The notes: generated from the letters alone by a model not told the origin. Shown: positions 33,513 through 40,797, numbered from the stretch's first letter. The stretch: DNA of 64,000 nucleotides from Dehalococcoidia bacterium (GCA_964291495.2 OZ219871.1:1216001-1280000); one strand, 5' to 3'. Program-made: numbers and translations.

Positions 33513-33620
33513 CGGGGGTCTCCTTTGCGCTGCATCCGCGAGATCTCAGCGAGGCTCACGATAGGAGACGGAGGCCGGAACCGGCACTTCCGGGTTGAAG
33601 GGTGCGCAACCCCGAGGTAC

Positions 33621-33656
33621 TGTGGTACCACAAGAACACAACGCAATATCTTGTGG
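33621..33656. promoter_or_regulatory. Putative TA operator
   Basis: Perfect palindrome TGTGGTACCACA (33621-32) and inverted repeat CCACAAGA/TCTTGTGG (33628-56) immediately upstream of the antitoxin. Confidence 0.55.
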
Positions 33657-33663
33657 AGTAGCC

Positions 33664-33939
33664 TTGAAGACGATCAGCGTGTCCGTGGACGATGGGACCC
33701 ACCGGCTGGCGCGAGTCAGGGCTGCCGAGACCGGCACGACCGTATCCGCCATGATGCGGAACATGCTGCTGGAGATGCTCAAGAGACCAGCAACTACCGA
33801 ACCCGTGGAGACCGAGCACGAAAGACGGGCCCGGCTCCTCGGCGACGTCCTCGAGCGGTTCAGCAACAAGGGCATCGGCGTGGACACCAGCCAGCTGCTG
33901 ACCCGCGAGGAACTGTACGACCGCGATGCGGCTCGCTGA
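33664..33939 (+). CDS. RHH-like antitoxin (VapB-like)
   Basis: TTG start; KTISVSVDD...ARVRAAE.GTTVSAM.R; C-terminal LTREELYDR; overlaps the PIN gene. Confidence 0.75.
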   Translation: MKTISVSVDDGTHRLARVRAAETGTTVSAMMRNMLLEMLKRPATTEPVETEHERRARLLGDVLERFSNKGIGVDTSQLLTREELYDRDAAR

Positions 33940-34363
33940 CACCAACATCCTCCTCTACGCCGTGAGCAATCAGGAGGATGTCGCCGCGAAGAAAGTCACG
34001 GCCGCGGCCACCCTGATGGAGCCGGACCTGGCGCTCTCCGTTCAGGTGCTTCAGGAGTTCTACCATCAGGCCACCAGGCCCCGCGGGCCGGCGGGGCTGA
34101 CCCACGAGCAGGCCATCGAGTTCCTGAGACCCCTCGGCACGCTCCCGACTCAGGACATCACAGTGGAGCTGTTCACCAGCGCGACCGGGATCAGGGCGAG
34201 GTTCGGCGTGTCCTACTGGGACGCCGCCATCCTCGCGGCGGCGAAACTGCTGGGATGCGAGGCCGTGTACTCGGAGGACCTGAGCCACGGGCAGAACTAC
34301 GGCGGGGTCATGGTGATCAACCCGTTCCTGGAGGAACGAAGAGCAGAGGAACCAACCACCTGA
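33926..34363 (+). CDS. PIN-domain toxin (VapC-like)
   Basis: DTNILLYA, QVLQEF, SYWDA.I, YSEDL..G, INPF. Confidence 0.92.
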   Translation: MRLADTNILLYAVSNQEDVAAKKVTAAATLMEPDLALSVQVLQEFYHQATRPRGPAGLTHEQAIEFLRPLGTLPTQDITVELFTSATGIRARFGVSYWDAAILAAAKLLGCEAVYSEDLSHGQNYGGVMVINPFLEERRAEEPTT

Positions 34364-34450: not shown

Positions 34451-35518
34451 GTGGACGACGAGAAGCGCGGTCCGCTGGCCCGCACGCAGACCCCCGAAGA
34501 CATCTCGATCGAGCCCACCCTGCGCCCCCGGCGCCTCGAGGAGTACTTCGGTCAGGACACCGTCAAGGAGTCGCTGCGGATCGCGATCGCCGCGGCGAAG
34601 GGGCGGGGCGAACCGCTCGACCACCTGCTGATCCACGGCCCGCCCGGCCTCGGCAAGACGACGCTCGCGATGATCCTCGCGTCCGAGATGGGCGTCTCGA
34701 TCCGCGTCACCTCGGGGCCTGCGATCGAGCGCGCGGGCGACCTCGCCTCGGTGCTCACGAGCCTGCAGCCGGGCGACGTGCTGTTTATCGACGAGGTGCA
34801 CCGGCTGCCGCGCGTCGTCGAGGAGATCCTCTACCCGGCGATGGAGGACTGGGCGCTCGACATCATCCTCGGCAGCGGGCCGAAGGCGCGCGACGTGCGG
34901 CTCACGCTCAACCGCTTCACTCTGATCGCCGCGACCACGCGCTACGCGCTGGTCTCGCAGCCGCTGCGCGACCGCTTCGGGGCGAGCTACCGGTTGGACT
35001 TCTACGACGAGGCGGCGCTGAGCGAGATCGTGCGCCGCTCGGCCGGCGTGCTCGGCTGCTCCATCGACGCCGGCGGGGTCGCGGCCATCGCCAGCCGGGC
35101 GCGCGGCACCGCGCGCGTCGCCAACCGGCTGCTGCGCCGCGTGCGCGACTACGCCGAGGTGGAGGCGGACGGCGTGATCACGGAGCCGGTGGCCGCGCTC
35201 GCCCTCGCGCAGCTCGGTATCGACGAGCTGGGCCTCGACGCGATGGACCGCGAGCTGTTGCGCGTGTTGGTCGAGCGCTTCGGCGGCGGACCGGTGGGCC
35301 TCGAGACGCTGGCCGCAGCGGTCTCCGAAGAGGCCGACACGATCATGGACGTCTACGAGCCGTACCTGCTGAAGATCGGCTACCTGCAGCGCACCCCGCG
35401 CGGGCGGGTCGCCTCGCGGCTGGCGTACGACCGCCTCGGCCTGGAGCCGCCCCCGGCGCTGCTGGCCGCCGTCGCGCAGCAGCCCGCGCTGTTCGAGGAG
35501 AACGGCGCGAGCGCCTGA
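34451..35518 (+). CDS. ruvB: Holliday junction helicase RuvB
   Basis: [37 protein letters not shown]...RTPRGR. Confidence 0.97.
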
Positions 35519-35522
35519 GGCC

Positions 35523-35729
35523 TCAGCGCACCCCCAGCACCATCGCGTCCACCGGGTTGCCGGCGTCGAAGACGGCGACGGCGAGGCGGCGGCCGGCCGT
35601 GAGCTGCGCGGCGGGGATGGCGCGCGAGACCGGCACGGACGTGACCACCGAGGAGAGCGATCCGGCGAAGCGCACGCTCGCCGTCCAGGCGGCGCTGTCG
35701 AAGGCGACCAGGGTGGCGCGCTCCAGCAC
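35523..35729 (-). CDS. 68-aa beta-rich protein, putative phage spike/OB-fold-like
   Basis: GTG at 35729 after GGAGG RBS, 2 nt after the preceding stop; TASVRF.GS....VPV...GRRLAV..FD.GNP.DA.VLG resembles the OB-fold of baseplate spike N-termini (inference). Confidence 0.55.
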   Translation of the reverse strand: MLERATLVAFDSAAWTASVRFAGSLSSVVTSVPVSRAIPAAQLTAGRRLAVAVFDAGNPVDAMVLGVR

Positions 35730-35731
35730 CG

Positions 35732-37702
35732 TCAGACCTCCCCGAGCGTCAGCGTCTGCTCGTAGCGCGGGCGCGCTCCGCGGGCGAAGCGCAGGCGCAG
35801 GCCGGCGACGCGGAACCGCGCGGCCTCGAGGCCTGCCGCCGCATCGCTGACCTCGACGATGTCGCCGGGCTCCTGCACGACATTGGGCCGGACGAGCAGC
35901 TCGCCGCGCTCGACGGCGAGGCGCGACTGGCGCAACAGCGTGCCCGCGCGGGCGGCGACGCGGTCCTGCGCGCCGAGGTTCTCGTCGACGGCGATGACCG
36001 CGCCGGCGCCCTCGGCGATCGCCGACTCGTCGGTCGCCTCGGCGAAGACGCCACTGCCGAAGACCCGCGCCCAGCCGGCGGTCGGGCGGCCGGCCTCGAT
36101 CGCGTGCGCGAGGATGGCGTGGTCCGTGCCGTAGGCGTAGTCGGCCGCGGCGCTCGCGGCCTGCTCGGACAGCACGAGCAGGCGACCATCGCTGCGCAGC
36201 CGGTCCGGCAGCGCGCGCAGCAGCCGGTGCATCGCGGTGGCGGCGCGCTCGCCGGCGCGCATGGTGAACGCCGGGCGCAGCGCGCCAGATTCGGAGCTCG
36301 CGCGGCGCGCGGTCAGCCGCAGCCCGGCGCGCCGCGCGATCGCGGCGAGGATCTCGCCGGCGCTCCGCTGCCCCGCCTCCCATACAAGCTGCTCCGTGGC
36401 GACCCACGTCTCGAGCAGGCCGAGGCCGTCGACCGCGTCCACCTCGACGGTCGCGGTCCCCCCGCTGCGACGCCGCCGGACCGCGGCGATCCAGAAGCGC
36501 GGCCCCTCGGACGTCTCGATACCGGCGCTGCCGCGGTAGCCGGGATGCACCCGCAGCTCGCCGCCGGCCGCCAGGGCGACCGGGGCGCGGGCGCCGGCGT
36601 AGCGGCCGTCCTCATTGCGCAGCGTCAGCCGCAGCCGTCCCTGCTCGCGCTGATCGATCACGGCCTCCAGCACGTCGTCCGTCAGCTCGTGCTCGACGTG
36701 CGCGATGGGGGCGCGCCAGACCGCGTCCGGCGAGGCGAGCCAGGCGGCAGCGGGTGAGGCGACGGCGCCAAGGCCGTACGGAGAGACGTGGGCGAATGGG
36801 CGCGGATCGCGCCACTCGCCGTCGCCGTGGAGGCTGCCGGCAACGCCCGCCGTGATCTGCACGCGGTCGTAGGCGCCCGTCCCCCGGTACGACTCGGCAA
36901 ACACCGCCTGCGGTGCGTCGGCGCGGAGCAGGCCGCTTGCGAGGTAGCCGACGTCCGACCCCGCGGCGGCCGAGGCAACGGCGGCGAGCGGCAGCCAGTG
37001 ACCGGGCGGCTGCCCGCCGCCCACCCCGAGCACCGTGGACCAGACGCCCGCGGCCCCGTCCACCGTGGTCCCCGAGACCAGCACGTTGCAGTCGACCTCG
37101 AAGTACGCGGCGAGGCCGCTGACCGTCGCGAGCGAGCGCGACCAGGCGACGGGCGCGGACCACGCGCCGAGCCCCTGGCGGCGCACGGCGAACACCGTCC
37201 CGCCCGAGGCGTAGAGCACGGCCGCGGACCCGTCGGGGCCGATCGCCACCGCCACCGCCGTGACGGACGAGGCCGCCGTCGCCACCGTCCGTGGCGCTCC
37301 GAAGCTGGCGCCCGAGTCTGCGCTCTCGCGCACCTCCACGCGCTTGCCGTCGGCGCGGACGCTCGCGAGGAGAGCGCGGCTGCCGGAGGCGGCGAGTCCG
37401 AGGCGCGGCGCGACGGCGACCGTCCCGACGGCGGTCCAGGCGTCGAAGCCCTCCCCCGCGGCGGGGTCGGTCACACGCTGGCGGCTGAAGGCGCCGGTGA
37501 TGGGATCGATCCGCGCGCGCAGCAGCGCGCCGTCGCCCGCCGCGGCGAGGGCGCACGGGCCGTCGCGCTCGGCGCCCTCGTGGATGCGCTGCCAGCGCAA
37601 CCGGATCGCGCCGACGTCGCGGTCGAAGAGCCGCACGCGCAGGTAGGGCTCGGCGCTGGCCGCCTGCTGGGCCGCGCGCAGCGTAGGGGTGAGCGCGCGC
37701 AT
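35732..37702 (-). CDS. 656-aa phage tail-like protein: propeller-like N-half + baseplate-hub-like C-half
   Basis: Asp-box ESADSGASF; C-half LRLTLRNEDGRY...GY...VEVDAVD...GEIL..IA...PGDIVEV.D...FRV..L pattern of GpD/gp27-like hubs. Confidence 0.55.
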   Translation of the reverse strand: MRALTPTLRAAQQAASAEPYLRVRLFDRDVGAIRLRWQRIHEGAERDGPCALAAAGDGALLRARIDPITGAFSRQRVTDPAAGEGFDAWTAVGTVAVAPRLGLAASGSRALLASVRADGKRVEVRESADSGASFGAPRTVATAASSVTAVAVAIGPDGSAAVLYASGGTVFAVRRQGLGAWSAPVAWSRSLATVSGLAAYFEVDCNVLVSGTTVDGAAGVWSTVLGVGGGQPPGHWLPLAAVASAAAGSDVGYLASGLLRADAPQAVFAESYRGTGAYDRVQITAGVAGSLHGDGEWRDPRPFAHVSPYGLGAVASPAAAWLASPDAVWRAPIAHVEHELTDDVLEAVIDQREQGRLRLTLRNEDGRYAGARAPVALAAGGELRVHPGYRGSAGIETSEGPRFWIAAVRRRRSGGTATVEVDAVDGLGLLETWVATEQLVWEAGQRSAGEILAAIARRAGLRLTARRASSESGALRPAFTMRAGERAATAMHRLLRALPDRLRSDGRLLVLSEQAASAAADYAYGTDHAILAHAIEAGRPTAGWARVFGSGVFAEATDESAIAEGAGAVIAVDENLGAQDRVAARAGTLLRQSRLAVERGELLVRPNVVQEPGDIVEVSDAAAGLEAARFRVAGLRLRFARGARPRYEQTLTLGEV

Positions 37703-37713
37703 GCCGGCCCGCG

Positions 37714-38319
37714 CTACCCGCCGCGCGGCGAGGAGAGCACGCCCGAGCGAGCGCGGCGAGCGCGGCCGTGCCGGGCCAGCGCGCGGGCGAACTCGGCGAG
37801 CCGTTCCTGCGCCCAGACATGGTAGTGCCGCCAGGTGTCCGCGCCGCCGACGTTCACCCGGTTGACCGCGAACGAGGCCCACTCCAGGGCCGCGTAGCCG
37901 CCCGCCCCCGTCGCTGCCAGGTCCTCGAGCGCCGGCGGCAGCGTGCTGCCGGCTTCGTCGAGCGTGTGCAGCTTCGAGTAGTGCACCGTGACCGCCTCGC
38001 CCCCGCCCGGCGGCGCAGCGACCTGCAGCGTCAGCGTGTCGCCCCAGAGCGAGAACGGCGGCCGCGAGGGCGGGTACTGCCCCACCGGGTACTCGACGGC
38101 CTCGATGCTGACGCGGTCGCTCAGGGTCGCGACGCTGAGGTCGCGGCTGCCGGCGACCGTCCGCAGCGCCGCGCTCGCCTCGAGCGGCGCGGCGAGCGAG
38201 AGCTCGCGGACGGCGCGCTCGATGTGACGGTCGAGCGCCTCGTCGGGCCAGCGCTGGTTGGCCGGATCGGTGTCGCGGAGGTCGCGGCGCAGCCGCGCGC
38301 GCATCGACGGCAGGTCCAT
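37714..38319 (-). CDS. Putative head-tail adaptor/neck protein
   Basis: MR.RLRRDLRD...RW.DE.L..HI..AV..LS helical N-terminus typical of phage adaptors; directly downstream of the capsid gene; GAGGA RBS. Confidence 0.6.
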   Translation of the reverse strand: MDLPSMRARLRRDLRDTDPANQRWPDEALDRHIERAVRELSLAAPLEASAALRTVAGSRDLSVATLSDRVSIEAVEYPVGQYPPSRPPFSLWGDTLTLQVAAPPGGGEAVTVHYSKLHTLDEAGSTLPPALEDLAATGAGGYAALEWASFAVNRVNVGGADTWRHYHVWAQERLAEFARALARHGRARRARSGVLSSPRGG

Positions 38320-38413
38320 CTCGTCCTCGATTCGGGCTGGAAGGCGCTGGGTGGGGAGGAGGGCGGCCGTCCGGCGCACCGGCCGGACGAGCCGCCCTCG
38401 TGCCGGCCTCGGC

Positions 38414-39304
38414 CTAGGGGCGGACGCCGCTGAGCTTCGCGAGCTTCAGCTCGTTGAAGAGCGCGACGGAGACGTACCACTTGACGCGCACGCGGGTGGC
38501 GTCCTTCGTCTCCAGCGCGCCGACCCGCTCGATCGTCAGTCCGCCCGGCGCGGTCAGCCCGGCCACGGCGCCCTCGCCGAACTGCAGGGCGTAGATCGTC
38601 GAGGTGTCCTCGGAGGCGCCGGTGGTGTCGTCGTCGGCGATGTGGTCGTTCACGCCGATCGGGATGCCGTCGTAGAAGGCGACCATGCGGCCGAACTCGT
38701 CGCGGTCGTGCTCGACGATCCCGCCGCCGCTGGCCCGCGCGAGCTTGTTGAGCGTACGCCGCGAGCGGCGCGACATCAGCAGCATCTCCGGCTTGCCGCC
38801 GCGCACGGAGTCGATCAGCTCGTCGAGCTTGTCGAGCGTCAGCGTCGCGCCGTTCGTCCCCATCGAGACCGTCTGGGCCGAGGCGCACAGCTCGGCGAGG
38901 CCGTCGAAGGACTTCGCGTCGCCGCTGGTATCGCCGTTGATGAAGGTGTCGTCGAACTTCTGCTGGACGGACTTCGCCTTGAGCGCGACGACCGCCGCCT
39001 CGATGTCCTGCACGTTGTTGCGGGTGCGGGCGATGTAGTTGTCGATGTCCGCGTCGCCGCCGAGGATCGTCAGCGCCGTCGTGATCTGCGTGAAGGTGGG
39101 CGTGTCCTCGGACCAGGTGTCGCCCACGTTGTAGAAGGCGGCCGAGGCCCCGAGCTTCTCGCGGTTGTAGGTCAGCCCGTTGCCGACGATCTCGATGAAC
39201 GGCAGCCGCTGCAGGATCGGGCTGTCGTAGACGACGGTCTCGATCACGCCCTCGAGCAGCACGTCGTTCGAGAGCTTCGCGCCTTCGGTCAGTGTCAGTG
39301 CCAT
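38414..39304 (-). CDS. Phage major capsid protein (HK97-like fold)
   Basis: MALTLTEGAKL, SPILQRLPF..I.GN.L.YNRE, LGGDADID, FINGD....FDGL, LDELID, IYALQFG, RVKWY..AL; AAGGAG RBS. Confidence 0.88.
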   Translation of the reverse strand: MALTLTEGAKLSNDVLLEGVIETVVYDSPILQRLPFIEIVGNGLTYNREKLGASAAFYNVGDTWSEDTPTFTQITTALTILGGDADIDNYIARTRNNVQDIEAAVVALKAKSVQQKFDDTFINGDTSGDAKSFDGLAELCASAQTVSMGTNGATLTLDKLDELIDSVRGGKPEMLLMSRRSRRTLNKLARASGGGIVEHDRDEFGRMVAFYDGIPIGVNDHIADDDTTGASEDTSTIYALQFGEGAVAGLTAPGGLTIERVGALETKDATRVRVKWYVSVALFNELKLAKLSGVRP

Positions 39305-39417
39305 GGTGTCGTGTCTCGCTCCTTCCGGCGCGCGCCGCGCGCCTCGCTCGTGATTGCCGCGGGCACGCTAGGGGCGCGCGCCGCCTGCTCCGAGGGCCAT
39401 GTGGCAGCGCTCGCCGG

Positions 39418-39906
39418 CTACGCCCGGGTCCGCTGCTCGAGGCCGTACGCGATCTTCTCGGCGGTGCTCATCGCCTCCGTGCGCGGCCCGCGCCGCTCCG
39501 GCGCACCGGCCGGGAAGCCGCGCACCGCCTCGTCCTCCGACTCGCGGGCGATCCGCTCGCGGATCTCGGCGACCGTGCGGCGCGCCGCCTCGACCGAGGC
39601 GTCGACCGCCTCGACGTCGTCGCCCTCGATCAGCTCCGGCGGCAGCGACGGCTCGGCCTGCAACAGCGCACCGCGATAACGCGCGACGGTGGCGCGGCGC
39701 GACGCTCGCTCCGCGTCGAGGGCGTCGCGGGCCTCCTGCAGCTCGCTGCGCAGCGTCGCCAGCTCATCGCGTTCCGCCTCGGCGACGGCCGCAAGCTCCG
39801 CCGCTGCCTCGTCGGGCAGGTCGTCCCCGGCCTGTTCGGGATCCGCGAGCGTCTCGCTCGAGGCCGCGTTCGCGCCGTCCTGCTCCATCGCGTCGTGCTC
39901 TGTCAT
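39418..39906 (-). CDS. Putative capsid scaffolding protein
   Basis: Acidic N-terminus, coiled coil, Pro/Gly linker, short C-terminal helix MSTAEKIAYGL; immediately upstream of the capsid gene; GAAGGAG RBS. Confidence 0.7.
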   Translation of the reverse strand: MTEHDAMEQDGANAASSETLADPEQAGDDLPDEAAAELAAVAEAERDELATLRSELQEARDALDAERASRRATVARYRGALLQAEPSLPPELIEGDDVEAVDASVEAARRTVAEIRERIARESEDEAVRGFPAGAPERRGPRTEAMSTAEKIAYGLEQRTRA

Positions 39907-40021
39907 GCGTCTCTCCTTCGGGCATCCGGTGTTCCGGATCGGGGTCGTCGAAGGGGCACGCTGCGCGTTGCGCGTGGAAACTCCGAGGGTCGGGTGGCGC
40001 TCGGCGCGGTACGATCCGGCC

Positions 40022-40684
40022 ATGGCCACTTCCGAGACCGCGGCCTCCGAAGTCACGACGCCTCCCGAGGGAGCACGGATCGCGATCCGCCCGCTCGCGC
40101 CCGCCGACGTGCGCGCGGTGCGGCGGCTGGAGCGCGCCGCCTACGGATCCGCCAACCCGCGCACCGCGTTCGAGCGCGAGCTGCGCAACGGCCTCGCGAG
40201 CTACCTCGCCGCCGTTGACGCCACGCCCGGCGCCGCGCCCGGCGCCGCGCCACCGGCGCGACGAGGACCGCTCGCCTGGCTCCGACGGCGCCTCGGAGCT
40301 GCCGAGGGGCCGCCGATCCTCGGCTTCGCGGGCGCCTGGTACACGCACGAGCAGCTGCACCTGGTGACGCTCGCCGTCGATCCGCGGGCGCAGCGGCGGG
40401 GGATCGGGCTCGCGCTGGTGCTCGCCGTCTGCGACCTGGCGATCGAGGCCGAACTCGACAGCATCGCGCTGGAGGTGCGCGCCTCGAACGCGGGGGCGAT
40501 GCGGCTCTACAAGCGCTGCGGCTTCCGGCGCGTCGGGCGGCTGCGCAGCTACTACAGCGACAACGGCGAGGACGCGATCGTGATGCTGCTCGACGGGCTC
40601 ACCGCGCCCGAGCCGCCGGAGGCGCTGACCCTCGCGCGCCGCGCACGCGACGCTGCCGGTCGCACGGTGGGCGAGGAGGGCTGA
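40022..40684 (+). CDS. rimI: RimI-like GNAT acetyltransferase
   Basis: LAVDP..QRRGIG, LEVRASN..A..LY...GF, YYSDNGEDA.VM. Confidence 0.85.
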   Translation: MATSETAASEVTTPPEGARIAIRPLAPADVRAVRRLERAAYGSANPRTAFERELRNGLASYLAAVDATPGAAPGAAPPARRGPLAWLRRRLGAAEGPPILGFAGAWYTHEQLHLVTLAVDPRAQRRGIGLALVLAVCDLAIEAELDSIALEVRASNAGAMRLYKRCGFRRVGRLRSYYSDNGEDAIVMLLDGLTAPEPPEALTLARRARDAAGRTVGEEG

Positions 40685-40707
40685 GGTGCGCGGCGGAAGC
40701 CGGACCT

Positions 40708-40747
40708 CCCTCACCCTCCGCCCTCTCCCTCGGGGAGAGGGGACCGG
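40708..40747 (+). repeat. BoxC/REP-like palindromic repeat, copy 3
   Basis: CCCTCACCCTCCGCCCTCTCCC-TCG-GGGAGAGGGGACCGG between convergent genes. Confidence 0.85.
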
Positions 40748-40797
40748 ACGGCTCTCGGAGGGTCCGGGTCAGTGTGCCGGGGGGCGGCGGCCGCGGG

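What the first reader, a model, noticed from the sequence alone, without database searches (positions are those of the whole stretch)
35523..39906. Minimal five-gene phage-derived particle cassette embedded between core genes: candidate domesticated GTA-like system
Seen: five co-oriented, intact ORFs in canonical virion gene order (scaffold, major capsid, adaptor, 656-aa tail/hub-like protein, 68-aa spike-like protein), most with clear RBSs. They are bounded directly by ruvB (stops 4 nt apart) and a divergent rimI (115 nt). The DNA looks as GC-rich as the host, unlike the nearby TA islands. I recognise no terminase, portal, protease, tail tube, tape measure, sheath, integrase, replication, repressor or lysis gene anywhere in the 64 kb, and I see no gene fragments at the edges. 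Known: gene transfer agents and other domesticated phage modules are host-ameliorated, lack integration and replication genes, and can be split over several loci. Inference: this is a vertically kept structural module of an undescribed Chloroflexota GTA-like particle or capsid-derived compartment, not a decaying prophage.
Basis: partly seen in the sequence, partly recalled or inferred. Interest (0 to 1): 0.9.

Follow-up and report, generated by a model that had tools for sequence, protein, structure and literature searches.

The report
Domesticated phage particle genes in Dehalococcoidia
A set of phage head, DNA-packaging and stub-tail genes has been passed down with the chromosome, under selection, across much of a whole class of Chloroflexota bacteria, which points to a so far undescribed gene-transfer-agent-like particle.

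Summary
The five co-oriented ORFs are real (window 35523-39906, minus strand). They are a scaffold-like protein, an HK97-fold major capsid protein, an SU10-type adaptor, a 656-aa beta-propeller fused to a gp27/Mu-gp44-type tail hub, and a 68-aa OB-fold protein.

They are only half of the system. About 300 kb away on the same contig lies a second operon with a large terminase, a Cys-rich HTH protein, an SPP1-type portal and small conserved ORFs. In other Dehalococcoidia families both halves form one cluster.

- The capsid gene is single copy. It was found in 172 of 301 sampled Dehalococcoidia genomes.
- It sits between rimI and ruvB throughout the genus and beyond.
- Its GC3 is host-like, its dS equals that of flanking genes, and dN/dS is 0.13-0.27.
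- Its tree is congruent with ruvB.
- No integrase, att repeat or tRNA adjoins the cassette, and no replication gene was recognised among the ORFs I scanned.
- The best phage capsids are only about 42% identical.

My reading is a vertically inherited, domesticated phage-derived DNA-packaging particle with a stub tail. It is GTA-like and not found in the literature I could search. Particle production, DNA content and transfer are untested. Some species have lost the packaging half, and others have lost everything.

The parts
39418..39906 (-). Scaffold-like protein, 162 aa, acidic coiled-coil
   Evidence: ORF and RBS read. Weak PHROG head-scaffolding hits (phrog_9857 E 0.0072, phrog_1793 E 0.016). 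Sits directly upstream of the capsid gene. Conserved in relatives at 76-90% in the near clade. dN/dS 0.22-0.35.
38414..39304 (-). HK97-fold major capsid protein, 296 aa
   Evidence: phrog_212 at 1.4e-71; PF05065 at 2.7e-12; SU10_MCP at 1.6e-6. Single copy in the genome. Found in 172 of 301 class genomes. dN/dS 0.13-0.27.
37714..38319 (-). Head-to-tail adaptor, 201 aa (SU10 adaptor family)
   Evidence: PF24175 at 1.1e-9, 39.5 bits against cut-off 27, covering 1-190 of 201. dN/dS 0.20-0.28.
35732..37702 (-). 656-aa tail hub: N-terminal all-beta propeller-like half plus C-terminal gp27/Mu gp44/VgrG-type hub half
   Evidence: AF2 pLDDT 92.2, pTM 0.88. Foldseek PDB hits 7aef_q, 7b5h_AJ, 9qgm_8A, 1wru (Mu gp44, TMt 0.71), 3cdd and 9ki1_G at E 1e-16 to 1e-13 over about 340 columns. 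BFVD hits named 'Phage protein D', 'Mu-like gpP' and '43 kDa tail protein'. Weak phrog_1887 tail protein hit on residues 339-640.
35523..35729 (-). 68-aa OB-fold protein, candidate hub plug (N-domain of a central spike without a needle)
   Evidence: AF2 pLDDT 94.3, five strands. No Foldseek hit at E<=1e-3. The top 50 include P2 gpV 3qr8 (7e-3), Mu baseplate 9ki1_V (1.4e-2) and P1 9vzk_q (5e-2), beside IF1 and proteasome-ATPase OB domains. Always follows the hub gene in relatives.
39958..39988 (-). Bipartite motif CCTCGGAG-N17-CAGCGT, 81 nt upstream of the scaffold ATG; candidate promoter or operator
   Evidence: CTCGGA-N18-YAGCGT occurs only twice in the 3.08-Mb genome, both in this cassette. 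CCCTCGGAG is kept in the 8 near-clade genomes shown.
39365..39395 (-). Second copy of the motif, CCTCGGAG-N17-TAGCGT, 90 nt upstream of the capsid ATG
38360..38399 (-). 17-bp GC-rich hairpin just after the capsid stop codon (no U-tract)
   Evidence: -50.7 kcal/mol for 95 nt, z -2.09, with 6 of 200 shuffles folding as well. An equivalent inverted repeat is visible in near-clade relatives. Function is inferred only.
34451..35518 (+). ruvB, host flank (context, not part of the element)
   Evidence: 95-99% identical in the near clade. Adjacent to the 68-aa gene in 15 of 17 genus loci.
40022..40684 (+). rimI-like acetyltransferase, host flank (context).
   Evidence: Adjacent in 17 of 17 genus loci. 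Directly abuts ruvB in two genera that lack the cassette.

Best explanation
The cassette is the head, neck and stub-tail half of a two-locus, chromosomally fixed, phage-derived particle system. It is inherited vertically in the class Dehalococcoidia (Chloroflexota).

**Locus 1 (this finding)** encodes scaffold, HK97-fold capsid, SU10-type adaptor, a trimeric gp27-like hub with an extra beta-propeller, and an OB-fold plug.

**Locus 2** lies at G000:C5 about 948.3-952.7 kb, roughly 300 kb away. It encodes:
- a small membrane protein and a protein of about 50 aa;
- a 111-aa helical protein, a candidate small terminase;
- an 82-aa membrane-anchored protein;
- the large terminase;
- a Cys-rich HTH protein, a candidate activator;
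- an SPP1-type portal.

**Proposed mechanism (inferred):**
1. Scaffold and capsid assemble a procapsid on the portal.
2. The terminase fills it with DNA.
3. The adaptor closes the portal and docks the hub and plug directly, with no tube, tape measure or sheath.
4. This gives a podovirus-like particle whose propeller domain would bind the recipient.
5. The two loci together hold only about 9 kb of element genes and no replication or integration genes. The particle therefore cannot propagate as a virus and would carry host DNA, as a gene transfer agent does.

**My odds:**

| Claim | Odds |
|---|---|
| Domesticated and vertically inherited | 0.9 |
| Makes DNA-filled particles | 0.65 |
| Transfers host genes like a GTA | 0.4 |
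For: **Shown here**
- **Gene identities:**
- **Copy number:** single copy of capsid, portal family and Terminase_6C in the genome.
- **One system:** in other families the portal lies directly upstream of the scaffold. All 4 ORFs I picked there hit PF05133. In L034 the terminase, HTH, portal, scaffold, capsid, adaptor, hub and plug form one cluster.
- **Locus 2:** the TerL-HTH-portal trio was present in 20 of 20 fetched loci. The 111-aa ORF lies upstream of TerL across the class.
- **Distribution:** capsid in 30 of 41 relatives and 172 of 301 class genomes, nearly all single and intact.
- **Fixed site:** rimI is adjacent in 17 of 17 genus loci and ruvB in 15 of 17. The same flanks occur outside the genus. 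An empty ruvB|rimI site is present in two genera without the element.
- **Co-divergence:**
  - Identity to G000 of capsid against ruvB gives Spearman 0.92 (n=23); portal against ruvB gives 0.91 (n=21).
  - The capsid+portal and ruvB trees share 11 of 18 splits, against a mean of 0.18 and a maximum of 2 in 1000 label shuffles. Patristic r is 0.91.
  - dS of element genes is 0.11-0.47 against 0.14-0.53 for the flanks.
- **Purifying selection (dN/dS):**

| Gene | dN/dS |
|---|---|
| Capsid | 0.13-0.27 |
| Portal | 0.02-0.12 |
| TerL | 0.19-0.33 |
| Adaptor | 0.20-0.28 |
| Hub | 0.21-0.32 |
| ruvB (host) | 0.06-0.13 |
| rimI (host) | 0.20-0.41 |

- **Terminase motifs:** the Walker-A-like RQxGKN, DExQ and the three nuclease acidic motifs are invariant in 16 TerL sequences.
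- **Composition:** host-like GC3.
- **No prophage signs:** no att repeats, no nearby tRNA, and the nearest tyrosine recombinase is 107 kb from locus 2.
- **Phage relatives:** all 291 phage records are under 60% identical, and the 25 listed are 40-42%.
Against: - **No direct evidence of function.** No particle, packaged DNA or transfer has been observed. Expression evidence is only short contigs of relatives in one metatranscriptome, which may contain DNA.
- **Not universal.** It was not found in 129 of 301 class genomes, including whole families (0/17, 0/7, 0/6) and four genera of the same family.
- **Decay of the packaging half.** Three genus members keep an intact locus 1 but have a truncated terminase. 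Two of them lack the portal (G014, G017) and one lacks the TerL N-terminus (G009). Either decay has begun there or locus 1 can act alone.
- **Frameshifts** occur in some assemblies (G004, G007, G011, G030). These may be sequencing errors.
- **Missing parts.** I recognised no lysis enzyme, head-completion protein, fibre or protease. The small-terminase call rests on position and one weak hit (E 0.0078).
- **Method limits.** dN/dS used the simple NG86 method on GC3-saturated genes. The host tree is a single gene.
Confidence: 0.6

Rival explanations
1. A domesticated particle with a function other than gene transfer. Examples are a killing or adhesion particle, a DNA-export or biofilm device, an anti-phage decoy, or an empty protein shell.
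For: The same evidence of domestication applies. Three species keep an intact locus 1 after losing terminase or portal parts. The hub carries a lectin-like propeller. No function has been measured.
Against: Terminase and portal are among the most constrained genes (portal dN/dS 0.02-0.12). The catalytic motifs of both terminase domains are invariant. This is hard to explain unless DNA is packaged. Capsid and portal co-occur: both present in 27 and both absent in 6 of 41 relatives, my count.
Confidence: 0.22
2. A decaying or cryptic prophage remnant with no function.
For: Phage structural genes without replication or lysis genes. Breaks or losses in some genomes.
Against: Intact single-copy orthologues at the same chromosomal site across a genus and beyond. 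dN/dS is like that of host genes, and dS equals that of the flanks. The tree is congruent with the host tree. GC3 is fully host-like. Presence in 172 of 301 class genomes.
Confidence: 0.04
3. A live temperate phage or helper-dependent satellite (PICI-like) that is unusually conserved.
For: IMG/VR lists 299 relatives as viral contigs. Related clusters with a different gene order exist in other Chloroflexota classes.
Against: - The genes are split into two loci 300 kb apart, with host genes between them.
- No integrase, att or tRNA adjoins the cassette.
- The best 80 IMG/VR contigs are 4-27 kb fragments. The 19 loci of 8 kb or more that I printed show the same cluster. None of the 10 flanking or inserted ORFs tested in three of them hit a replication or integration family.
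- The chromosomal position is fixed.
Confidence: 0.05
4. Locus 1 and locus 2 are unrelated remnants of two different phages that merely coexist.
For: They lie 300 kb apart, and the shared promoter-like motif of locus 1 was not found at locus 2.
Against: They are contiguous in several other families. They co-occur across relatives. They show the same divergence pattern.
Confidence: 0.03

Closest known systems
RcGTA-type gene transfer agents of Alphaproteobacteria (features recalled, not tested here)
   Same: A phage-derived head and packaging cluster that is fixed in the chromosome, vertically inherited under purifying selection, ameliorated, without integrase or replication genes, and with genes spread over more than one locus.
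   Different: - Different phylum, so presumably an independent capture. I did not compare sequences with RcGTA.
- No prohead protease, tail tube, tape measure or head-tail joining set was recognised in the two loci.
- The tail is reduced to adaptor, hub and OB plug.
- Function is not demonstrated.
Other described GTAs and defective-prophage particles: Bartonella BaGTA, Brachyspira VSH-1, Desulfovibrio Dd1, Methanococcus VTA, Bacillus PBSX (recalled)
   Same: Host-encoded phage-like particles that carry host DNA. Each is an independent domestication.
   Different: None is from Chloroflexota. None, as far as I recall, has this gene set. I ran no sequence comparison.
Siphophages with phrog_212 capsids (Pseudomonas Ab18/PaMx11, Xanthomonas Xp15, Streptomyces Rowa)
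   Same: Capsids share about 40-42% identity over 99% of the length. Rowa has the same order TerS-TerL-portal-(protease)-scaffold-capsid-adaptor.
   Different: Rowa goes on with head closure, neck, terminator, tube, chaperones, tape measure, lysin and repressor. All of these are missing here.
Phage SU10 adaptor family (PF24175) and podovirus necks
   Same: The adaptor matches the family over its whole length, above the curated cut-off. The inferred tail is short.
   Different: The SU10 nozzle and fibres (recalled) are replaced here by a gp27-type hub. The portal is SPP1-type, with only a weak SU10_portal hit in a relative.
Baseplate hub and central spike of contractile and long-tailed systems: T4 gp27-gp5, Mu gp44-gp45, P2 gpD-gpV, VgrG
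   Same: The C-terminal half of the 656-aa protein has the hub fold. The next gene encodes an OB fold like the spike N-domain.
   Different: An extra N-terminal propeller. The spike is reduced to 68 aa without a beta-helix needle. No tube, sheath or baseplate wedge genes were recognised.
Encapsulins (HK97-fold compartments)
   Same: An HK97-fold shell protein encoded in the chromosome.
   Different: The capsid hits phage families, and no encapsulin family appears among the Pfam hits at E<=1. Terminase, portal, adaptor and hub are present.
IME1 elements of Dehalococcoides (bioRxiv 10.64898/2026.09.15.751708; outline, abstract and found passages read)
   Same: Virus-like elements of Dehalococcoidia.
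   Different: IME1 elements are 21-28 kb integrative, episomal elements that lack tailed-phage hallmark proteins (abstract). They are unrelated to this cluster.

Membership tests
Gene transfer agent (functional class) | Phage-derived structural and packaging genes encoded in the host chromosome, without replication or integration genes | tested here: met
   Searches identify the genes. No att repeats, nearby tRNA or integrase. No replication gene was recognised among the ORFs I scanned in the two loci.
Gene transfer agent (functional class) | Vertical inheritance under purifying selection | tested here: met
   Synteny. Trees share 11 of 18 splits against at most 2 in shuffles. dN/dS is 0.02-0.35 for seven genes, and dS equals that of the flanks.
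Gene transfer agent (functional class) | Particles package more or less random host DNA, less than needed to carry the element's own genes | not testable with these tools
   Needs purified particles and sequencing of DNase-protected DNA.
Gene transfer agent (functional class) | Particles deliver DNA to recipient cells | not testable with these tools
   Needs culture experiments.
RcGTA-like cluster (homologous family) | Gene set with prohead protease, head-tail connectors, tail tube and tape measure (recalled) | tested here: not met
   None of the proteins of the two loci hits such families. Genome-wide absence was not tested.
RcGTA-like cluster (homologous family) | Sequence homology of capsid, portal and terminase to RcGTA proteins | not tested
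   No RcGTA sequence was at hand.
HK97-fold major capsid protein (PF05065 / phrog_212) | Profile match over the full length | tested here: met
   phrog_212 at 1.4e-71 (1-295 of 296); PF05065 at 47.1 bits against cut-off 24.2.
SU10 adaptor (PF24175) | Profile match above the curated cut-off | tested here: met
   39.5 bits against 27, profile positions 1-187 of 194.
SPP1-type portal (PF05133) | Profile match above the curated cut-off | tested here: met
   52 bits against 25.5 for the own protein. 47.8 bits in the genome scan.
Large terminase | RNaseH-like nuclease domain, plus ATPase Walker motifs | tested here: met
   PF17289 at 31.9 bits against 22.6. PHROG TerL families. RQxGKN, DExQ and the acidic nuclease residues are invariant in 16 sequences. 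No Pfam ATPase-domain family hit.
Small terminase | Profile or fold match; oligomeric DNA-binding protein | tested here: inconclusive
   The 111-aa ORF has no hit. Its L066 homologue hits phrog_1889 at E 0.0078 only. Its position upstream of TerL is conserved.
gp27 / Mu gp44 / VgrG hub | Hub fold | tested here: met
   Foldseek E 1e-16 to 1e-13, TMt up to 0.71-0.72, on a pLDDT-92 model. No sequence-family hit in Pfam.
Central spike (gpV / gp45 / gp5) | OB-fold N-domain plus trimeric beta-helix needle | tested here: not met
   Only the OB fold is present, in 68 aa. The spike matches are below significance.
Integrated prophage | Integrase, att direct repeats, often a tRNA target, and a replication/lysogeny module | tested here: not met
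   The flanks are ruvB and rimI. An empty site is present in relatives.
Encapsulin | Encapsulin shell family match and no portal or terminase | tested here: not met
   No encapsulin family among the Pfam hits at E<=1. Portal and terminase are present.

The most novel reading that the evidence does not exclude
Dehalococcoidia, a class abundant in ocean, subsurface, sponge and dechlorinating communities, carry an ancient gene transfer agent of independent origin.

It would be a podovirus-like particle whose whole tail is an adaptor, a propeller-bearing gp27-type hub and an OB plug. It is encoded by a cluster that has been broken up and dispersed among core genes over the life of the class.

This would be a new GTA lineage, the first in Chloroflexota, with the smallest tail apparatus known for such a particle.
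Probability: 0.4. Interest if true: 0.9.

Novelty: new variant of a known kind. Interest (0 to 1): 0.8.

Why it matters
Only a handful of independent GTA lineages are known (recalled), and all were found through cultured organisms. A class-wide, selected, phage-derived packaging particle in Dehalococcoidia would have three consequences:
- It would add an independent origin in a phylum where gene exchange mechanisms are almost unknown.
- It would offer a route for horizontal spread of genes in mostly uncultured lineages.
- It would show how far a tail can be reduced and still be kept by selection.

It also matters practically. Public virus catalogues list at least 299 contigs with this capsid as viral. 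The 19 longest loci I examined show the same chromosomal cluster rather than a phage genome. Virus-host links and prophage counts for Chloroflexota may therefore be inflated.

The hypothesis is directly testable wherever a cultured carrier exists. MAGs labelled Tepidiformaceae carry the capsid.

Tried and rejected
- **Wrong frame.** I translated 35523-35760 in the wrong frame. I then set the 68-aa ORF from the sequence itself.
- **'up1_338' artefact.** The ORF upstream of TerL that I first treated as a host gene is an antisense artefact. The real plus-strand genes are the 111-aa and 82-aa ORFs, so its rows mean nothing.
- **Hub plus plug complex.** Complex prediction on the hub half with the 68-aa protein gave 'no answer' (score 0.01). 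This is neither for nor against binding.
- **Small terminase.** Not confirmed.
- **Motif at locus 2.** The promoter-like motif of locus 1 was sought at locus 2 and not found.
- **Accessory ORFs of other lineages.** These are the 127-132 aa family, the 154 aa, 89 aa and LamG proteins, and others. They have no homologue in this genome by tblastn, except L066_110 (which is the 111-aa ORF) and two hits elsewhere that I did not follow: L034_149 at C5:1365587 and L075_136 at C5:122814.
- **Sequencing runs.**
  - Only X1 holds the stretch fully, and it may be the source sample.
  - All other shares are 0.14 or lower, so I draw no habitat conclusion from them.
  - The RNA run X23 gave short contigs at about 86-96% identity on hub, adaptor, capsid, scaffold and ruvB. 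An RNA library can hold DNA, so this is a hint only. Parts without cover mean nothing.
- **G011 second copy.** Contig C4 carries a second copy together with its own ruvB at 83% identity. I take this to be a second organism in the bin, not a duplication.
- **Rows dropped.**
  - The tree used 21 genomes that had capsid, portal and ruvB in fetched loci. It left out G002, G005, G007, G014, G016, G017, G019, G026-G028, G030, G032, G033 and G036, because of missing, broken or unfetched genes.
  - The correlation left out G007, G011, G026, G027, G030 and G036, because their matches were partial or split.
- **Literature.** These searches found no description of this element:

| Terms | Papers |
|---|---|
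| 'gene transfer agent' + Dehalococcoidia | 2 |
| 'gene transfer agent' + Chloroflexi | 36, 15 listed |
| 'gene transfer agent' + Chloroflexota | 15 |
| Dehalococcoidia + major capsid protein + terminase + portal | 0 |
| Dehalogenimonas + prophage | 13 |
| Dehalococcoidia + capsid protein | 3 |

I judged these by listings and abstracts only, except the IME1 preprint. The library lacks most subscription journals. Supplements were closed.

Full report
**1. Observation**

The window is G000:C5:1216001-1280000 of a 3.08-Mb, 8-contig genome of about 72% G+C. Titles of its closest relatives name them as Dehalococcoidia or Chloroflexota MAGs.

Five co-oriented ORFs lie on the minus strand between ruvB (34451-35518, +) and a rimI-like gene (40022-40684, +). 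The ruvB stop and the stop of the last ORF are 4 nt apart. The first ORF and rimI diverge across 115 nt.

**2. What the five proteins are**

- **Capsid (38414-39304).** A typical HK97-fold major capsid protein: phrog_212 at 1.4e-71 and PF05065 at 2.7e-12.
- **Adaptor (37714-38319).** Matches the SU10 adaptor family over its whole length, above the curated cut-off.
- **Scaffold (39418-39906).** Called only from weak PHROG hits (E 0.007-0.016), its acidic coiled-coil look and its position.
- **656-aa protein (35732-37702).**
  - It has no Pfam family. An AlphaFold model built on 28 orthologues is confident: pLDDT 92.2, pTM 0.88.
  - The C-terminal half, about 335-656, is a gp27 / Mu gp44 / VgrG-type hub. 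Foldseek gives E 1e-16 to 1e-13 against chains from the Algoriphagus, Anabaena, Photorhabdus and Streptomyces contractile injection system structures. It also matches Mu gp44 (1wru, TMt 0.71), MuSo2 and P1.
  - Viral models named protein D, gpP and 43-kDa tail protein match as well.
  - The N-terminal half is an all-beta, propeller-like domain.
- **68-aa protein (35523-35729).** A five-stranded OB fold with pLDDT 94.3. Foldseek finds nothing at E<=1e-3. The spike proteins P2 gpV, Mu (9ki1_V) and P1 (9vzk_q) appear among generic OB domains at E 0.007-0.05. In context I read it as the OB 'plug' domain of a central spike that has no needle. This is an inference.

**3. The missing half**

In four other Dehalococcoidia families, the ORF directly upstream of the scaffold is an SPP1-type portal. 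All 4 ORFs I picked there hit PF05133 at 1e-18 to 4e-32.

Searching the own genome gave one portal-family match, at C5:951553-952638. tblastn with those portals and their neighbours placed three genes at C5:949725-952710. They are:
- a large terminase of 491 aa, with PF17289 at 31.9 bits against 22.6 and PHROG TerL families;
- a 126-aa Cys-rich HTH protein, with phrog_836 'late transcriptional activator' at 6.5e-6;
- a 408-aa portal, with PF05133 at 52 bits.

Further conserved small ORFs are read upstream on the same strand, and most overlap or abut the next ORF:
- a membrane protein of about 100 aa;
- a protein of about 50 aa;
- a 111-aa helical protein that is kept upstream of TerL across the class;
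- an 82-aa protein with a C-terminal hydrophobic helix.

The 111-aa protein is my candidate small terminase. Support is only its position and one weak hit of a homologue (phrog_1889, E 0.0078).

I did not scan every ORF of the window. The only portal-family and Terminase_6C-family matches in the genome lie about 300 kb away on the same contig.

**4. One system, split**

- In L034 (G038) the order is 111-aa homologue, TerL, a divergent Ig-domain gene, HTH, portal, scaffold, capsid, two ORFs, adaptor, one ORF, hub, plug.
- Contiguous TerL-HTH-portal...scaffold-capsid...adaptor-hub-plug clusters are also seen in L066, L075, L100 and L107 and in IMG/VR contigs.
- Within such clusters, host genes can sit between the parts: a dCTP deaminase in L107 and HcyBio in L075.
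- The distance between portal and capsid varies:

| Lineage | Portal to capsid |
|---|---|
| G020 | 11 kb |
| G030 | 32 kb |
| G029 | 47 kb |
| Own genus | Hundreds of kb, or another contig |

The simplest reading is an ancestral contiguous cluster that has been progressively dispersed in the chromosome.

**5. Distribution**

- **Own genome:** the capsid is single copy.
- **Relatives:** found in 30 of 41 genomes. That is 17 of 18 other genomes of the genus, 1 of 6 other genera of the family, and 11 of 16 other families.
- **Class sample:** found in 172 of 301 genomes, and in 134 of 223 high-quality ones. Nearly all are single and full length, with E below 1e-120. Some families have none (0/17, 0/7, 0/6).
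- **Phylum sample:** 40 of 301 genomes match, and 20 of these are marked as outside the class. By my count of the family table, about 266 of the sample were outside the class. The outside hits lie in a few families at lower scores. Six such loci show TerL and portal nearby in a different order, and no hub or plug by BLAST.
- **Species-representative collection:** it holds at least 584 capsid relatives. The best 80 (70-96% identity) all carry Chloroflexota-type labels.
- **Downstream genes:** of those 80 loci, 52 hold at least 6 kb downstream of the capsid. Of these, 39 show adaptor, hub and plug.
- **Portal:** found in 33 of 41 relatives. By my count:

| Pattern | Genomes |
|---|---|
| Capsid and portal both present | 27 |
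| Both absent | 6 |
| Capsid only | 3 (G014, G017, G011-like cases aside) |
| Portal only | 5 |

Most of the discordant genomes are assemblies of 120 or more contigs.

**6. Vertical inheritance**

- **Same site.**
  - In 17 loci from 16 genus genomes, rimI is adjacent in 17 and ruvB in 15. One contig ends early, and G006 differs.
  - rimI, dsbA and vkor upstream and ruvB downstream are also seen outside the genus, for example in L055, L057, L058, L064 and L112. ruvB starts within 1.5 kb of the plug gene in 13 of 43 loci with room to see it.
- **Empty site.** Two genera of the same family that lack capsid and portal have ruvB and rimI back to back, followed by the same downstream genes. These are G022, a single contig, and G024.
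- **Equal age.**
  - Identity to G000 of capsid and portal tracks that of RuvB: Spearman 0.92 with n=23, and 0.91 with n=21.
  - A capsid+portal tree and a RuvB tree of 21 genomes share 11 of 18 splits. Label shuffles gave a mean of 0.18 and a maximum of 2 in 1000. Patristic distances correlate at r=0.91.
  - Pairwise dS of element genes (0.11-0.47) matches that of flanking host genes (0.14-0.53) in the near clade.
- **Selection (near-clade dN/dS).**

| Gene | dN/dS |
|---|---|
| Capsid | 0.13-0.27 |
| Portal | 0.02-0.12 |
| TerL | 0.19-0.33 |
| HTH | 0.10-0.32 |
| Adaptor | 0.20-0.28 |
| Hub | 0.21-0.32 |
| Scaffold | 0.22-0.35 |
| Plug (short) | 0.12-0.73 |
| ruvB (host) | 0.06-0.13 |
| rimI (host) | 0.20-0.41 |
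| dsbA-like (host) | 0.15-0.42 |

- **Composition.** Cassette GC3 of 0.93-0.98 equals that of the host genes.

**7. Not a prophage**

- No direct repeats bracket the cassette.
- The only tRNA in the window is at 580-655.
- The genome has three tyrosine-recombinase matches. The nearest is at C5:842207, 107 kb from locus 2.
- All 291 matching phage records are under 60% identical. The 25 listed are 40-42% identical.
- One of these, Streptomyces phage Rowa, carries the full siphovirus tail, lysis and repressor genes that are missing here.
- IMG/VR holds 299 relatives.
  - The best 80 lie on contigs of 4-27 kb.
  - The 19 loci of at least 8 kb that I printed show the same cluster, and several end right after the plug gene.
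  - Ten flanking or inserted ORFs of three of them gave Ig-domain, signal-peptidase-like or no hits, and no replication or integration families.

**8. How it probably works (inferred)**

The gene set is enough for a procapsid (portal, scaffold, capsid), for DNA packaging, and for a neck (adaptor). On the packaging side, the Walker-A-like RQxGKN, DExQ and the nuclease acidic motifs of TerL are invariant in 16 sequences across the class.

Nothing resembling a tube, tape measure, sheath, terminator or fibre was recognised in either locus. I therefore propose that the pseudo-hexameric hub trimer docks on the adaptor ring and is closed by the OB plug. This would give a stub-tailed particle. The propeller half of the hub is the only candidate receptor-binding part.

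The small membrane proteins of locus 2 could serve in release, and the HTH protein in activation. Both are guesses.

Scaffold and capsid share a bipartite motif, CCTCGGAG-N17-YAGCGT, 81 and 90 nt upstream of their start codons. The core pattern occurs only at these two places in the whole genome, and CCCTCGGAG is kept in the near clade. It is absent from locus 2.

A GC-rich hairpin follows the capsid gene (z -2.1, which is modest).

The element has no replication or integration genes and lies in two places. The particle could not propagate itself, and host DNA is the likely cargo, as in gene transfer agents.

**9. Evidence against, and limits**

- No particle, cargo or transfer has been observed.
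- One metatranscriptome holds short contigs of close relatives (about 86-96% identity) on hub, adaptor, capsid, scaffold and ruvB. DNA carry-over cannot be excluded.
- The element was not found in 129 of 301 class genomes.
- G014 and G017 keep an intact locus 1 but have TerL truncated (residues 1-423 and 1-384) and no portal. G009 lacks the first 218 residues of TerL and the small ORFs. Either decay is under way there or locus 1 can act alone.
- Apparent frameshifts in G004, G007, G011 and G030 may be assembly errors.
- dN/dS was computed by NG86 only. The host tree is a single gene.
- The complex prediction for hub and plug gave no answer.

**10. Comparison and novelty**

Functionally the closest known things are gene transfer agents. 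The evolutionary hallmarks are met, but the defining activities could not be tested.

It is not an RcGTA-type cluster by gene content. I did not compare sequences.

The parts belong to known families: HK97 capsid, SPP1 portal, SU10 adaptor, gp27-type hub. The combination appears unusual in four ways:
- a tube-less tail;
- a propeller-bearing hub;
- a 68-aa plug;
- dispersal among core genes across a class.

Six literature searches found no description of it. The one Dehalococcoidia virus paper I opened concerns unrelated filamentous-type IME1 elements. The library lacks most subscription journals, and supplements were closed, so prior mention cannot be excluded.

I rate it a new variant of a known kind, with high interest.

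Noticed in passing
window 33595-34363: A vapB/vapC-like antitoxin-PIN pair just upstream of ruvB. Its GC3 (0.74 and 0.87) is lower than its neighbours'. It is absent from this position in several relatives, where the ahpD-like gene is closer to ruvB.
   Followed up: partly
L041 5000-6700 and 7120-7400 (G000:C5 about 947.0-949.4 kb); window about 40686-40780: A repeated GC-rich element whose translations read '...LTLRPLPRGEGTG...'. It occurs several times upstream of and inside locus 2, and once downstream of rimI. It looks like a REP- or MITE-like intergenic repeat.
   Followed up: no
L017 15685-16011 (G014): A duplicated fragment of the ruvB 3' end (residues 263-354) abutting a fragment of the 68-aa gene (residues 41-68). 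It lies about 3.8 kb beyond the intact cassette, which suggests a local rearrangement at the junction.
   Followed up: no
L026 (G011 contig C4) and L037 (G011 contig C1): G011 holds two cassettes, each with its own ruvB (95% and 83% identical to G000). This is probably two organisms in one bin. The C4 copy has a broken hub gene and no scaffold hit.
   Followed up: partly
L034 11701-14139; L230 2199-4049; L187 529-2418: In a low-GC lineage, a divergent 616-812 aa protein full of TIG/Ig domains lies next to the HTH-portal genes, between TerL and HTH in L034. It could be a lineage-specific fibre or a host surface protein.
   Followed up: partly
L107 6915-7601; L075 4723-5955: Host metabolic genes (a dCTP deaminase-like gene and homocysteine biosynthesis HcyBio) lie between portal and scaffold in other lineages.
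   Followed up: partly
L100 5245-5628; L107 10977-11375; L070 6467-7198: A shared family of small proteins (127-132 aa module, 43-68% identical) lies between capsid and adaptor in several lineages. It has no family hit and no homologue in this genome. It may be an accessory head or neck protein that was lost here.
   Followed up: partly
L233-L238 (G560, G462, G508, G578, G487, G422): Chloroflexota outside the class carry capsids 50-55% identical, with TerL and portal nearby in another order and no detectable hub or plug. I did not resolve whether these are prophages or a sister domestication.
   Followed up: partly
L241 5563-7209 (G014); L242 8593-10286 (G017): The deletion that removed the TerL C-terminus, HTH and portal also removed half of the neighbouring host gene. 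It left about 1.6-1.7 kb of unexamined DNA, possibly an insertion sequence.
   Followed up: no
L153, L154, L184, L223, L224 (IMG/VR): Several contigs catalogued as viral end within about 10 nt after the plug gene. This looks like provirus-boundary trimming at the edge of this chromosomal cluster.
   Followed up: no
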